A stretch of DNA of 64,000 nt from a bacterium (GCA_049472315.1 JBLIRN010000013.1:9562-73561), one strand, 5' to 3'. Numbered from the stretch's first letter, positions 27,969-31,472 are shown. Program-made: numbers and translations. Notes: generated by a model from the letters alone, not told the origin.

Positions 27969-27972
27969 CAAA

Positions 27973-28290
27973 ATGGGGTCAGGTCTTGAATTGACAGTTT
28001 TTTGGAATAAACGCTCATGCCACCTTGTGGCGCCACGAAGCATGAAAATGCTATATTTTCAGATGAAACGCACATGAGCCGGATGAAACTGCGAATGTCG
28101 AATGTCGAATGTCGAATGTAGAATGTAGAAGTGAAACGCAGATGAGCCTTCGGCTCACAAAGAGGCATGAAAATACCCAAAGGGGATTTTCAGATGAATA
28201 CAGAATATTTTCGAGACAAACCCTCATGCCCTTTCAGGGCGCCACGAAGCATGAAAATATGATTCTATTTTCGGAGCAAGATTGAATATG
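27973..28290. repeat. Second copy of the dispersed repeat family, truncated or variant: one TIR (atggggtcaggtcttgaattgacagtttt), two cgccacgaagcatgaaaat sub-repeats, and a (cgaatgt)4-5 heptamer microsatellite at 28092-28133
   Basis: Sequence identity to the 6736-6920 element was read directly. Confidence 0.5.
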
Positions 28291-28331
28291 GATAGAGCAC
28301 CATATTGAAATGAAGAAAGGGTAGGTGGAAC

Positions 28332-29489
28332 ATGGATTATTTCCTGACCGAAGACCAGCTCATGATCAAGGAGCTTTCACGACGGATTGCCGAGGAGCGC
28401 ATAAAGCCGGTCAGGGCTGAACTTGATGAAAAAGAGGTGTTTCCGTGGGAGATCATCAAGGAGATGGCCACCTCCGACATGTTCGGGATCTTTATTCCCG
28501 AGGAGTTCGGAGGATTAGGCGGGGGATGCCTGGAACTCGTGCTGGCGGTGGAGGAATTGAGCCGGGCCTGCAGCGGGGTTGCCATCAGTTTCGCAGCCAC
28601 CGCCCTGGGCAGCTTTCCCATTATTCTGTTTGGCTCCCAGGAGCAGAAGGAGCGGTATCTGCCTGATATCGCCGCAGGAAAACGTCTTGCCGCCTTCGCC
28701 CTCACCGAGCCGGATGCGGGTAGCGACGCAGGGGGCGTCAAGACATCCGCCCGTCTTGAGGGGGAGGAATACGTGCTCAACGGCACCAAGCAGTGGATCA
28801 CCAACGGGGGGGAGGCGGAGGTCTATACGGTCATTGCCATCACCAATCCGGCAAAGGGGATGAGGGGGGCGAGCGCCTTTATCGTGGAGAAGGGCACCCC
28901 CGGCTTCGATTTCGGGAAGAAGGAAAAGAAGATGGGGATCAGGGCCTCGGCCACCAGGGAGCTGGTGTTCACCGATTGCAGGATTCCCAAGGCCAATCTG
29001 ATCAGCAGGGAGGGGATGGGATTCATCGTTGCCATGAAGACCCTCGACCAATCGAGACCCGGTATCGGGGCGCAGGCCATAGGTATCGCCCAGGGCGCCA
29101 TGGAAGAGGCGATCGAGTATTCCCACCAGCGGGTGCAGTTCGGCCAGCCGATCTCGTCATTCCAGGCCGTCCAGCACATGCTCGCGGACATGGCCACACA
29201 GATCGAGGCTGCGCGTGCGCTGGTATACAGCGTGGCCCGTTTTATGGACAGCGGCACAAAGGATTTTTCCAAGGAGTCCGCCATGGTCAAGCTGTTCGCA
29301 TCGGATGTGGCCATGAAGGTGACCATCGATGCGGTGCAGATCCTGGGCGGATACGGGTACATGCGTGATTACCCGGTGGAGAAGATGATGAGGGACGCCA
29401 AGATCACCCAGATCTACGAAGGAACAAACCAGATCCAGCGGAATGTCATCGCCCTCGAGCTGCTCAAGTCAAGGGCAAAGGGGAACTGA
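28332..29489 (+). CDS. Acyl-CoA dehydrogenase (short/medium-chain, butyryl-CoA dehydrogenase-like)
   Basis: 385 aa with typical ACAD N-, middle and C-terminal domains (…YEGTNQIQR…). Confidence 0.85.
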
Positions 29490-29490
29490 G

Positions 29491-30276
29491 ATGGAGATCG
29501 TGGTATGTATAAAACAGGTCCCCGAAACCGGCAATATCCGGATCGATCCCCAGACCAACACCCTCATCCGGGAGGGCGTTCCCAGCATCATCAATCCCTT
29601 TGACCTGTATGCCCTCGAGGAGGGGATCAGGATCAAGGAGAAATGCGGGGGCACGGTGACGGTCATCTCCATGGGACCGCCCCAGGCTGATGCCGCCCTC
29701 AGGGAGGCTCTCTCGATGGGCGCGGACAGGGCCATACTGATAAGCGACAAGCGGTTCAGCGGCGCCGACACCTGGGCCACCTCCTATACCCTCAGCCAGG
29801 CCATCCGGAAGATCGGTTCCTATGACCTGATCCTGTGCGGCAAACAGGCGATCGACGGGGATACCGCACAGGTGGGGCCGGAGTTGGCCCAAACCCTGGG
29901 GATTCCCGTTCTTACCTATGTGAAACACATAGAGGAGATTTCCAAGGATCGAATACGGATACAGCGGATGATGGAGGATGGCTACGATGTCATGGAGTCC
30001 TCCCTGCCCGTAGTCTTGACCGTGGTGAAGGAGATCAACATCCCGCGTCTACCCTCCCTCAAGGGAAAGATGCGTGCCCGGAAGGAGGAGATCCCGGTGT
30101 GGAATGCGGAGGATATCGGTGCGGATCCCGCCCGGTGCGGGCTCAACGGCTCCGCCACCTGGGTGGTCAGGATCTTCTCCCCGGAGCCGAGGGCCTCGGG
30201 AAAGGTCTTCTCCGGGGAAAAGGAGGCGATGGTATCCTCGCTGGTGAGGGAGCTCAAAGAGGCGAAATTGATTTAA
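29491..30276 (+). CDS. etfB: Electron transfer flavoprotein beta subunit
   Basis: MEIVVCIKQVPE... N-terminus. Confidence 0.85.
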   Translation: MEIVVCIKQVPETGNIRIDPQTNTLIREGVPSIINPFDLYALEEGIRIKEKCGGTVTVISMGPPQADAALREALSMGADRAILISDKRFSGADTWATSYTLSQAIRKIGSYDLILCGKQAIDGDTAQVGPELAQTLGIPVLTYVKHIEEISKDRIRIQRMMEDGYDVMESSLPVVLTVVKEINIPRLPSLKGKMRARKEEIPVWNAEDIGADPARCGLNGSATWVVRIFSPEPRASGKVFSGEKEAMVSSLVRELKEAKLI

Positions 30277-30287
30277 GGGGAATGAGT

Positions 30288-31472
30288 ATGTACATAACCA
30301 TACGTGAGGAACAATGCACCGGGTGCGAGGCCTGTATCCCTTCGTGCCCCTTCGGGGCAATCACCGTGGAGGGGGATGTCGCCCGTATCGGAGACGCCTG
30401 CAACCTCTGCAGGGCATGCATCGAGGTCTGCCCGGTCGGGGCCATCGAGTTCATCCGGAAGGACATCGAGGAGATGGGCCGCGGTGAGCACCGGGGGGTG
30501 TGGGTGTTCGCGGAGCAGCGGCACGGGCACCTTGCCGAGGTGGGCTACGAGCTCCTGGGCGCCGGGCGTGCACTTGCCGATCAACTGGACACAGAGCTGT
30601 GCGCCGTCGTATTCGGGCAGGGGTTTGATGTCCAGGCGGCCGGGCTCGCCGCCTATGGGGCGGACCGGGTTCTCCTGGTGGACGAACCCAGCCTCAACGA
30701 ATTTCATAACGATCTGTATACGGCTGCGCTCACCGATCTTGTCCGAACCTACCAGCCGGAGATCCTCCTGGCGGGTGCGACCAGCATCGGGAGGTCCTTT
30801 TTCCCCATGGTGGCCGCCACGGTGGGAACCGGTCTTACCGCGGACTGCACCTCCCTGGGCATTGATCCGGAAAAACAAATACTTCTCCAGACAAGGCCCG
30901 CCTTCGGGGGAAATATCATGGCCACCATCGTTTGCCCCAAGCACCGTCCCCAGATGGCCACGGTGCGTCACAAGGTCATGAAAAAGCCGGAACCCGACGC
31001 CTCCCGAAAGGGGGAGGTGAGAAGGGAGAGGATCGACCTTTCCTCCGGGGCCTCTCGCACCGCCTTTATACGGTTTGTCGAGGACATGTCCGAGAAGGTC
31101 AACCTGACGGATGCCGACATCATCGTTGCGGGCGGACGGGGCATCGGAAAGCCGGAGCACTTCTCTCTCCTGAGGGAATTGGCCGAGCTTTTAAACGGCG
31201 CGGTGGGTGCGTCCAGGGCCGCCGTTGATGCCGACTGGATCCCGTATTCCCACCAGGTAGGGCAGACCGGCAAGACCGTTTGTCCCAAACTCTATATCGC
31301 GTGCGGAATTTCCGGTGCGATCCAGCACCTGGTGGGCATGCAGTCCTCCGAGGTGATCGTGGCCATCAACCGGGATCCTGATGCTCCGATCTTCAATGTT
31401 GCCAACTATGGATTGGTAGGGGATCTCTTCGAGATCGTGCCGGCGCTGATCAAGGAGATCAAACAGGCGTGA
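30288..31472 (+). CDS. etfA: Electron transfer flavoprotein alpha subunit with an N-terminal 2x[4Fe-4S] ferredoxin domain (FixB-like)
   Basis: [12 protein letters not shown] ... [12 protein letters not shown], followed by the Etf alpha FAD-binding region (…[15 protein letters not shown]…). Confidence 0.85.

What the first reader, a model, noticed from the sequence alone, without database searches (positions are those of the whole stretch)
27970..31472. The fab operon is split between fabH and fabD by a repeat element plus an acd-etfB-etfA (ferredoxin-fused) module. No FabI-type enoyl reductase is in the cluster.
The canonical plsX-fabH-fabD-fabG-acpP-fabF order is interrupted by three elements. 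The first is a 320-bp MITE-like repeat. The others are an acyl-CoA dehydrogenase and the EtfB/EtfA genes, where EtfA carries an N-terminal 2x[4Fe-4S] ferredoxin domain (the FixB or bifurcating-type architecture). Acd plus EtfAB run in the reductive direction is chemically an enoyl-thioester reductase. With no fabI, fabK, fabL or fabV visible in the cluster, this embedded module is a candidate non-canonical, possibly ferredoxin-linked, enoyl reductase for fatty-acid synthesis. Alternatively it is an insertion mediated by the flanking repeat.
Basis: inference. Interest (0 to 1): 0.55.

Follow-up and report, generated by a model that had tools for sequence, protein, structure and literature searches.

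The report
Flavoprotein reductase trio inside fatty-acid operon
A butyryl-CoA-dehydrogenase-like flavoenzyme and its ferredoxin-linked electron-transfer flavoprotein sit inside the core fatty-acid synthesis operon of this uncultured anaerobe, which shows no known enoyl reductase, so the trio is a strong but untested candidate for a new, possibly energy-saving, enzyme for the last step of fatty-acid elongation.

Summary
The operon reads yceD-rpmF-plsX-fabH-[320-bp repeat]-acd-etfB-etfA-fabD-fabG-acpP-fabF-rnc.

- **The trio.** EtfA carries an N-terminal 2x[4Fe-4S] domain. The closest solved relatives are C. difficile Bcd (5OL2) and A. woodii CarD/CarE (6FAH), not FixB.
- **The repeat is incidental.** It belongs to a family found at 49 places in this genome. 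Relatives with the same gene order lack it, so repeat-mediated insertion is rejected.
- **Conservation.** The Acd belongs to one tight clade (62-88% identity across more than 10 anaerobic phyla). It lies beside fab genes in 53 of 98 loci, in two different arrangements.
- **No known enoyl reductase here.** No FabI, FabL, FabK or FabV was found in this genome or in four of its five family relatives.
- **Small genomes.** Five small genomes, including a closed 1.14-Mb chromosome, have this Acd as their only ACAD. They have no beta-oxidation genes and no known enoyl reductase.

Caveats:
- The assembly lacks fabZ, so it is incomplete for fab genes.
- The genome has a beta-oxidation operon with no Etf of its own.
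- Some carriers also have FabL, FabI-like or FabK-like genes.
- Nothing is shown biochemically.

This scan has found the same trio before on other genomes.

The parts
25196..25915 (+). yceD (DUF177) and rpmF (L32), the usual head of the fab operon. A promoter-like site lies at 25096-25124.
   Evidence: Pfam YceD 106 bits and Ribosomal_L32p 86 bits. Promoter-like site with 11 of 12 matches.
25936..27968 (+). plsX (25936-26970) and fabH (26967-27968)
   Evidence: Pfam FA_synthesis 372 bits; ACP_syn_III and ACP_syn_III_C.
27969..28288 (.). Copy of a dispersed, modular intergenic repeat. Two related units of about 80-100 nt flank a unit of about 130 nt that contains a (CGAATGT)5.6 tandem repeat. 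The native 45-bp acd leader follows at 28289-28331.
   Evidence: 94 matches in the tool search. 131 blastn HSPs at 49 places, with the last 45 nt unique. Internal direct repeats. Tandem repeat. Absent at the same junction in G002, G004 and G005.
28332..29489 (+). acd: a Bcd-like acyl-thioester dehydrogenase/reductase (385 aa, FAD). The catalytic Glu363 sits in the invariant Y-E-G-T-N motif.
   Evidence: Three ACAD Pfam domains. Best PDB match is 5OL2_C, the C. difficile Bcd of the bifurcating complex, at 449 bits. Invariant columns in the 30-sequence alignment A2.
29491..30276 (+). etfB: small Etf subunit of the bifurcating (FAD-binding) type. It carries a DGDTAQVG segment identical to that of CarD.
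   Evidence: Pfam ETF. All five PDB matches below 1e-30 are bifurcating or confurcating Etfs, and the best is CarD 6FAH_B at 282 bits.
30288..31472 (+). etfA: large Etf subunit with an N-terminal 2x[4Fe-4S] ferredoxin domain (two CxxCxxCxxxCP motifs). Its QTRPAFGGN segment is identical to that of CarE.
   Evidence: Fer4, ETF and ETF_alpha domains. Translation. Full-length match to CarE 6FAH_A at 441 bits.
31528..32451 (+). fabD (malonyl-CoA:ACP transacylase). It probably starts at ATA 31528, because no ATG, GTG or TTG lies upstream of the conserved AFIFPGQGSQ motif.
   Evidence: Pfam Acyl_transf_1. Sequence. The ATA aligns with the ATG of the G004 orthologue.
32448..34779 (+). fabG (32448-33203), acpP (33276-33518) and fabF (33532-34779)
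   Evidence: TIGR01830 at 315 bits, over the cut-off. PP-binding and ketoacyl-synt domains. fabF start.
34838..35929 (+). rnc (34838-35584), a tatA-like gene (35594-35869) and the first strong terminator-like hairpin (35896-35929)
   Evidence: Pfam RNase III domains. TatA_B_E. Terminator scan.

Best explanation
acd-etfB-etfA is a fixed, co-transcribed part of the type II fatty-acid synthesis operon. It most likely supplies the enoyl-thioester reduction step of each elongation cycle in this organism, replacing FabI/FabL/FabK/FabV.

Proposed mechanism, by analogy with Bcd-EtfAB and CarCDE:
1. NADH reduces the FAD on EtfB.
2. One electron passes through the FAD on EtfA to the FAD of Acd.
3. After two rounds, Acd reduces trans-2-enoyl-ACP (or -CoA) to the saturated acyl thioester.
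4. The other electron goes uphill through the two [4Fe-4S] clusters of the EtfA ferredoxin domain to ferredoxin.

The net reaction would be: enoyl-thioester + 2 NADH + 2 Fd(ox) -> acyl-thioester + 2 NAD+ + 2 Fd(red).

Shown here: the gene content, the domain architecture, homology to bifurcating complexes, conserved linkage to fab genes across phyla, and the lack of known enoyl reductases.

Inferred: the substrate (ACP versus CoA), the reductive direction and the coupling to ferredoxin.

The repeat upstream of acd is an unrelated, recent passenger.
For: 1. **Operon structure.** All genes lie on one strand with gaps of 1-56 bp apart from the repeat. No terminator-like site is predicted in the intergenic gaps before 35896.
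2. **Synteny within the class.** The order yceD-rpmF-plsX-fabH-acd-etfB-etfA-fabD-fabG-acpP-fabF-rnc is kept through genus, family, order and class.
3. **Synteny in other phyla.** The orthologue (63-68% identity) instead follows fabF-(rnc) at the end of the cluster. Of 98 clade members, 24 are fabH-acd, 24 are fabF-acd and 5 are in other fab contexts.
4. **Conservation.** All Acd proteins of 62% identity or more form one clade (SH-aLRT 96), apart from Bcd-like paralogues of genomes that have FabK or FabI. Acd is the most conserved protein of the operon: 73% against 47-60% for the Fab proteins in G016, and 64% against 35-62% in G033.
5. **No known reductase in the own genome.**
   - There are only two SDR genes. 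Both are FabG-like with YxxxK, score 161 and 138 bits on the FabL model whose cut-off is 328, and reach 53 bits or less against E. coli FabI.
   - The only NMO hit is PyrD.
   - There is no FabV domain.
   - The MDR hits are Tdh-like and BchC-like.
6. **Family relatives.** The same absence of FabI, FabK and FabV holds in G001, G002, G004 and G005. G001, G004 and G005 show no FabL either; G002's FabL-like gene is listed under evidence against.
7. **Wider pattern.**
   - Of 30 genomes outside the class with fab-linked acd, none has FabI, 2 have FabL, 4 have a FabK-like hit of 300-358 bits, and none has FabV.
   - All 13 genomes with strong FabI or FabK lack a fab-linked acd.
   - G015, a class member without the Acd, has fabH-fabD uninterrupted plus a fabG-fabZ-fabI-like cluster.
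8. **Small genomes.** Five genomes of 1.1-1.5 Mb, including the closed 1.14-Mb chromosome CP070655, have exactly one ACAD, and it is the fab-linked one. They have no enoyl-CoA hydratase, no real 3-hydroxyacyl-CoA dehydrogenase, and no FabI/L/K/V.
9. **Etf type.**
   - The best solved relatives are CarD and CarE.
   - The DGDTAQVG and QTRPAFGGN segments are identical to those of CarD and CarE.
   - A conserved EtfA arginine that contacts the bifurcating FAD is required for bifurcation, and CarE has the same two-cluster Fd domain (PMC9232219).
   - 51 of 55 EtfA genes beside the acd genes surveyed carry the two-cluster domain; two of the four exceptions belong to a Bcd-like paralogue.
Against: 1. 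**Sequence points to CoA substrates.** By sequence the Acd is nearest to CoA-dependent enzymes: 449 bits to C. difficile Bcd, against about 220 bits to carrier-protein-dependent ACADs such as 4IRN and 6CXT.
2. **A possible catabolic role.** This genome has a complete beta-oxidation operon on contig C45 (two ACADs, a FadB-like protein, a thiolase and an acyl-CoA synthetase) with no Etf of its own. The fab-operon etfBA is the only Etf in the assembly. So Etf, and perhaps Acd, may serve catabolism.
3. **Orthologues with a canonical reductase.** Orthologues of 71-78% identity occur in Bacillota MAGs away from fab genes. Two of those MAGs have a genuine FabI.
4. **Some carriers have other candidates.**
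   - FabL in G064 and G035.
   - FabK-like genes of 300-358 bits in G035, G044, G051 and G059.
   - A divergent FabI-like gene in families f2 and f3.
   - A FabL-like Yx6K SDR in the genus mate G002.
5. **The assembly is incomplete for fab genes.** No fabZ is found, although 19 of 20 class genomes have one. The region that carries fabZ in G004 and G001 falls beyond the end of contig C69. Absence of a reductase in this genome alone is therefore weak evidence.
6. **FabV control.** The FabV search had no positive control.
7. **Solo copies.** About a quarter of clade members stand alone, without etf or fab neighbours within 7 kb.
8. **No experiments.** No biochemical or genetic data exist.
Confidence: 0.55

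Rival explanations
1. The trio is an ordinary Bcd/EtfAB working on acyl-CoA. It would be either the short-chain step of beta-oxidation (run in reverse as confurcation: acyl-CoA + Fd(red) + NAD+ -> enoyl-CoA + NADH) or a crotonyl-CoA reductase. On this view, its place in the fab operon reflects only co-regulation of lipid genes or operon drift.
For: - The closest solved relatives are all CoA-dependent. The best NCBIfam match is acryloyl-CoA reductase AcrC, at 493 bits and below its cut-off.
- The own genome has a beta-oxidation operon without an Etf, and only one etfBA pair exists.
- Bacillota orthologues with FabI are not fab-linked.
- Published genome papers have read such genes as Bcd/EtfAB (PMC6349859).
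Against: - Five small genomes keep the orthologue as their only ACAD. They have no hydratase, no hydroxyacyl-CoA dehydrogenase and no known enoyl-ACP reductase.
- No beta-oxidation gene was found among the neighbours examined by Pfam in five loci that lack fab genes.
- The fab linkage arose in at least two arrangements and is kept across phyla.
- The beta-oxidation operon here has its own two ACADs.
Confidence: 0.22
2. A conventional or still unknown enoyl-ACP reductase does the job and is simply not in the assembly or not recognisable. The trio would then have another lipid-related role. One example is oxidising acyl-ACP to trans-2-enoyl-ACP as the entry to anaerobic unsaturated fatty-acid synthesis, as the unrelated flavoenzyme FabX does in Helicobacter pylori.
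For: - The assembly lacks fabZ and a whole accessory fab-like cluster that is present in genus mates.
- The genus mate G002 has a FabL-like Yx6K SDR.
- A second FabG-like SDR of unknown role lies on contig C13.
- The FabX precedent for a backwards enoyl reductase appears in the title and abstract of PMC8626469.
Against: - The region missing from this assembly is present in G001 and G004 and holds no FabI/L/K/V.
- The same lack of reductases recurs in at least 24 of 30 carriers outside the class, including a closed chromosome.
- A desaturation role would still leave the reduction step unassigned.
Confidence: 0.15
3. The acd-etfBA block is a recent insertion carried in by the flanking repeat element, with no functional tie to fatty-acid synthesis.
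For: A 320-bp multi-copy repeat lies directly upstream of acd.
Against: - Relatives across the class have the same fabH-acd-etfB-etfA-fabD order without the repeat, with gaps of 46-120 bp.
- There is no repeat copy downstream of etfA.
- GC content is even across the block.
Confidence: 0.02

Closest known systems
CarCDE, the electron-bifurcating caffeyl-CoA reductase-Etf complex of Acetobacterium woodii (PDB 6FAH)
   Same: It has the same three-subunit make-up. EtfA matches CarE over its full length, including the N-terminal two-cluster ferredoxin domain (441 bits). EtfB matches CarD best (282 bits). Acd matches CarC at 331 bits.
   Different: CarCDE reduces an aromatic enoyl-CoA in caffeate respiration, and I know of no link to fab genes (from memory). 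Here the trio lies inside the FAS II operon, and the Acd is closer to Bcd than to CarC.
[quoted passage not shown]
   Same: Acd is most similar to these Bcd proteins (449 and 420 bits), and the catalytic Glu in the YEGT motif is kept. The Etf core is of the same bifurcating type.
   Different: Their EtfA has no ferredoxin domain (PMC9232219), and they work in butyrate fermentation (established knowledge). The clade here is separate from Bcd-like paralogues and occurs in genomes without any crotonyl-CoA pathway.
Known enoyl-ACP reductases FabI, FabL (SDR), FabK (FMN, NMO family) and FabV
   Same: The trio takes the place in FAS II operons that a reductase would need. It shows a largely complementary distribution with strong FabI and FabK genes.
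   Different: The fold and cofactor set are unrelated: an ACAD plus Etf with three FADs and two [4Fe-4S] clusters. It has three subunits, and a possible ferredoxin output instead of simple NAD(P)H consumption.
ACAD-family enzymes acting on carrier-protein thioesters (prolyl-ACP dehydrogenase 4IRN, TcsD 6CXT, MbtN)
   Same: They show that the ACAD fold can accept phosphopantetheine-linked substrates on a carrier protein.
   Different: They are much more distant (about 220 bits; the MbtN model gives 77 bits) than the CoA-dependent Bcd. They also work oxidatively in secondary metabolism.

Membership tests
Bifurcating ACAD/EtfAB complexes (Bcd-EtfAB, CarCDE) | ACAD subunit with three ACAD domains and the catalytic glutamate | tested here: met
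   Pfam Acyl-CoA_dh_N, _M and _1. Y362-E363-G364-T365 is invariant in 30 orthologues. 449 bits to 5OL2_C.
Bifurcating ACAD/EtfAB complexes (Bcd-EtfAB, CarCDE) | EtfB of the second-FAD (bifurcating) type rather than the AMP-binding type | tested here: met
   This is a sequence-level test only. All five PDB matches below 1e-30 are bifurcating or confurcating EtfB proteins, and no non-bifurcating ETF reaches 1e-30. The DGDTAQVG segment is identical to that of CarD.
Bifurcating ACAD/EtfAB complexes (Bcd-EtfAB, CarCDE) | Conserved EtfA arginine that contacts N5 of the bifurcating FAD | tested here: inconclusive
   The QTRPAFGGN segment is identical to that of CarE in the HMMER alignment, and it contains an arginine. 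PMC9232219 reports that the conserved arginine is required for bifurcation. That this arginine is the one in question was placed from memory, not mapped on a structure here.
Bifurcating ACAD/EtfAB complexes (Bcd-EtfAB, CarCDE) | [quoted passage not shown] | tested here: met
   Two CxxCxxCxxxCP motifs. Fer4 Pfam hits. The domain aligns with CarE residues 2-60. It is present in 51 of 55 neighbouring EtfA genes.
Bifurcating ACAD/EtfAB complexes (Bcd-EtfAB, CarCDE) | NADH-dependent ferredoxin reduction coupled to enoyl-thioester reduction | not testable with these tools
   This needs anaerobic enzyme assays.
Enoyl-ACP reductases (FabI/FabL/FabK/FabV) | Membership by fold: SDR with Yx6K (FabI, FabL), FMN TIM-barrel NMO family (FabK), or FabV domains | tested here: not met
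   Acd, EtfB and EtfA match none of these families. The trio can only be a functional analogue.
Enoyl-ACP reductases (FabI/FabL/FabK/FabV) | Catalyses trans-2-enoyl-ACP reduction in FAS II | not testable with these tools
   There is only indirect support, from operon linkage and the lack of other candidates.
Carrier-protein-dependent ACADs | Closer to known acyl-ACP/PCP dehydrogenases than to acyl-CoA dehydrogenases | tested here: not met
   4IRN scores 222 bits, 6CXT 219 bits and the MbtN model 77 bits, against 449 bits for Bcd.
MITE-like element (for the repeat) | Short, non-coding and multi-copy | tested here: met
   The 320-bp copy contains no ORF of 60 aa or more; two minus-strand ORFs run into its left edge. 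Copies lie at 49 places in 3.05 Mb.
MITE-like element (for the repeat) | Terminal inverted repeats and target-site duplication at this copy | tested here: inconclusive
   The only inverted repeat in this copy is an internal 13-nt pair. At other sites a 30-nt end segment recurs in inverted orientation. Target-site duplications were not examined.

The most novel reading that the evidence does not exclude
The trio is a new class of enoyl-ACP reductase that is electron-bifurcating. Each fatty-acid elongation cycle would oxidise two NADH and return reduced ferredoxin, so that strict anaerobes of many phyla (Nitrospirota, Omnitrophota, Elusimicrobiota, Margulisbacteria, Thermodesulfobacteriota and others) recover energy from lipid synthesis and need none of FabI/L/K/V.
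Probability: 0.3. Interest if true: 0.85.

Novelty: new variant of a known kind. Interest (0 to 1): 0.68.

Why it matters
The enoyl reduction step is the most variable step of bacterial fatty-acid synthesis (established knowledge). Many uncultured anaerobic lineages show no recognisable enzyme for it.

If this ACAD/Etf trio is that enzyme, three things follow:
- It fills a gap in metabolic reconstructions of dozens of phyla.
- It adds a flavin-based, three-subunit reductase class.
- It would be the first case in which a biosynthetic pathway returns low-potential electrons through bifurcation. That changes energy budgets for organisms living near the thermodynamic limit.

It also warns against reading every 'Bcd/EtfAB' in a MAG as evidence of butyrate metabolism.

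Tried and rejected
- **Complex prediction.** Prediction of an Acd dimer with AcpP, using my own 30-row alignments A2 and A3, gave no verdict. It counts neither for nor against binding.
- **Repeat-mediated insertion.** Rejected by the synteny in relatives.
- **Rfam.** The search of the repeat region found only chance-level hits.
- **Promoter and terminator scans.** They found nothing in the repeat.
- **FabK.** The only NMO hit in the genome is PyrD.
- **MDR-type reductases.** The hits are Tdh-like and BchC-like, not enoyl-reductase-like.
- **The second SDR (contig C13).** It has YxxxK and best matches FabG models, so it is not FabI or FabL.
- **The 532-aa Rossmann protein.** It lies in the accessory fab-like cluster of genus mates and looks like an acyl-ACP reductase (aldehyde-forming), not an enoyl reductase.
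- **FabK-like genes of the class (260-280 bits).** They do not lie near fab genes.
- **Literature.** Seven searches found no paper that links an ACAD/Etf complex to enoyl-ACP reduction.
- **FabV.** The searches had no positive control.
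Full report
**What is there.** The + strand carries one tightly packed gene row:
- yceD, rpmF, plsX and fabH
- a 363-bp gap
- acd, etfB and etfA
- fabD, fabG, acpP, fabF and rnc

A promoter-like site lies ahead of yceD. The first strong + strand terminator-like hairpin comes only after rnc and tatA, and the two weak + strand sites before it lie inside fabD and fabF. acd has all three ACAD domains. etfB and etfA have the ETF domains. EtfA begins with two CxxCxxCxxxCP motifs. 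FabG passes its equivalog cut-off, so the SDR in the cluster is the ketoreductase and not an enoyl reductase.

**The repeat.** The first 320 bp of the gap between fabH and acd belong to a modular repeat family.
- A search with the whole 363-bp gap finds matches at 49 places in the 3.05-Mb assembly. The last 45 bp of the gap are unique.
- Genus and family relatives have the same fabH-acd junction with only 46-120 bp and no repeat.
- The element is a recent passenger. It did not bring acd-etfBA in.

**What the proteins resemble.**
- Acd is closest to the Bcd of the C. difficile bifurcating complex (5OL2_C, 449 bits) and to A. fermentans Bcd.
- EtfA matches CarE of the caffeyl-CoA reductase over its full length, ferredoxin domain included (6FAH_A, 441 bits). 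EtfB matches CarD best. Every EtfB match in the PDB below 1e-30 is a bifurcating or confurcating Etf.
- The segments DGDTAQVG (EtfB) and QTRPAFGGN (EtfA) are identical to those of CarD and CarE.
- PMC9232219 states that CarE has a two-cluster Fd domain. It also reports that the conserved EtfA arginine contacting the bifurcating FAD is needed for bifurcation.
- The right comparator is therefore CarCDE/Bcd-EtfAB, not FixB.

**Is the link to fatty-acid synthesis real?**
- The order fabH-acd-etfB-etfA-fabD holds through the genus, family, order and class.
- In other phyla the orthologue (63-68% identity) follows fabF or rnc at the end of an otherwise canonical cluster.
- A scan of species genomes found more than 592 relatives. 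The best 80 have 69-88% identity and come from many groups: Nitrospirota, Omnitrophota, Elusimicrobiota, Bacillota, Actinomycetota MAGs, Rokubacteria, Margulisbacteria, Ratteibacteria, Thermodesulfobacteriota and others.
- In a tree, all proteins of 62% identity or more form one clade (SH-aLRT 96), apart from Bcd-like paralogues. Their contexts are fabH-acd 24, fabF-acd 24, other fab 5, etf only 22 and alone 23.
- Where fab genes are absent, the neighbours examined by Pfam in five such loci are unrelated genes such as PTPS, TldD, an Rrf2 regulator and a MiaB-like enzyme. None is a beta-oxidation gene.
- Acd is the most conserved protein of the operon.

**Is there another enoyl reductase?** In this genome:
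- The FabK family search hits only PyrD.
- No FabV domain is found (that control was blank).
- Only two SDR genes exist. Both are FabG-like with YxxxK. Both score far below the cut-off on the FabL model and reach 53 bits or less against E. coli FabI.
- The two MDR hits are Tdh-like and BchC-like.

In relatives:
- G001, G004 and G005 of the same family give the same negative result. G002 has a FabL-like Yx6K SDR (215 bits, below the cut-off) in a separate accessory cluster.
- Families f2 and f3 carry the trio and also a fabG-fabZ-fabI-like cluster with a divergent FabI (179 bits, below the cut-offs).
- G015 is the one good class genome without the trio. It has fabH-fabD uninterrupted plus that FabI-like cluster.

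Outside the class, 30 genomes have a fab-linked acd:
- None has FabI.
- Two have FabL (G064, G035).
- Four have a FabK-like hit of 300-358 bits.
- None has FabV.

All 13 genomes with strong FabI or FabK lack a fab-linked acd.

**The strongest single result.** Five genomes of 1.1-1.5 Mb were examined, one of them a closed 1.14-Mb Omnitrophota chromosome. Each has exactly one ACAD, and it is the fab-linked one. None has an enoyl-CoA hydratase, a real hydroxyacyl-CoA dehydrogenase or any known enoyl-ACP reductase. In those cells a CoA-based role has no pathway to belong to.

**Caveats specific to this genome.**
- It has a full beta-oxidation operon on contig C45: an ACAD of 594 aa, a FadB-like protein, a thiolase, an acyl-CoA synthetase and an ACAD of 383 aa. 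That operon has no Etf, and the fab-operon etfBA is the only Etf in the assembly. Etf may therefore also serve catabolism.
- The assembly has no fabZ, although 19 of 20 class genomes have one.
- In G004 and G001, fabZ sits in an accessory cluster: FabG, KAS, FabZ, KAS, an amidotransferase-like gene, an acyl-ACP-reductase-like gene and B12-radical-SAM genes. That cluster lies next to genes whose orthologues here end contig C69.
- Absence of a gene from this assembly alone is therefore weak evidence. The argument rests on the pattern across genomes.

**Prior knowledge.**
- Seven full-text searches found no paper that ties an ACAD/Etf complex to enoyl-ACP reduction.
- Matheus Carnevali et al. 2019 (PMC6349859) noted Bcd next to EtfAB in Margulisbacteria and relatives, and read it as Bcd/EtfAB.
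- This scan has reported the same trio in fab operons of other genomes several times. One later check there lowered the claim, because its lead organism has FabL. I tested FabL explicitly here.

**Verdict.** The gene arrangement is real, conserved and not caused by the repeat. The most likely reading (about 55%) is that the trio is the enoyl reductase of FAS II in this lineage. Whether it bifurcates to ferredoxin is less certain (about 30% overall). The main rival is ordinary CoA-dependent Bcd/EtfAB shared with beta-oxidation (about 22%).

Noticed in passing
window 31500-31580: fabD has no ATG, GTG or TTG upstream of its conserved AFIFPGQGSQ motif. An in-frame ATA at 31528 lies after a GAAGGATGG Shine-Dalgarno sequence. 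It aligns exactly with the ATG of the G004 orthologue, so it is either a non-canonical start or a base error, not a frameshift.
   Followed up: partly
window 27969-28288; also G000 contigs C1:247078-247371, C59, C32, C86, C45:2368-2500 and others: A dispersed modular intergenic repeat family lies at 49 places in the genome. A unit of about 80-100 nt has 42-59 matches and a unit of about 130 nt has 12-18. At several sites a 30-nt end segment recurs in inverted orientation. One copy lies next to the beta-oxidation ACAD on C45.
   Followed up: partly
G000 contig C69 end; L165 (G004:C35:32000-51000) 6797-18645; L166 (G001:C76): This assembly has no fabZ. In genus mates the only fabZ lies in an accessory cluster: FabG-like, KAS, FabZ, KAS, WbuX-like amidotransferase, acyl-ACP-reductase-like (532 aa), two B12-binding radical SAM proteins and a methyltransferase. 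This resembles 'ladderane-type' lipid clusters. The cluster falls in an assembly gap here.
   Followed up: partly
L151 (G000:C45) 2542-11532: A complete beta-oxidation operon: ACAD (594 aa), FadB-like (849 aa), thiolase, acyl-CoA synthetase and ACAD (383 aa). It has no Etf genes, although the genome holds only the fab-operon etfBA.
   Followed up: partly
L167 (G008:C151) 2883-4882; L170 (G015:C215) 128-2012: A three-gene fabG-fabZ-fabI-like cluster with a divergent FabI (179 bits, below all FabI cut-offs) recurs in families f2, f3 and f6 of the class.
   Followed up: partly
L179 (G002:C95) 1293-5810: An accessory cluster in a genus mate: KASIII-like, SDR, small ACP-sized ORF (79 aa, not scanned), FabZ, FabL-like SDR with Yx6K (215 bits) and a hexapeptide acetyltransferase. 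It is not found in this assembly.
   Followed up: partly
L176 (G038:C1:44000-60000) 908-4007: In a genome without the Acd orthologue and without FabI or FabK, the fab cluster is followed after rnc by a lone etfB and a 762-aa ORF with no Pfam match.
   Followed up: no
L049 12347-13831; L050 3669-4952; L064 12159-13505; L053 3683-7524: Family f3 has an extra ORF of 430-490 aa between fabD or etfA and fabG, with no Pfam hit or only DUF7305. In G018, etfB and etfA are separated by 3.8 kb.
   Followed up: no
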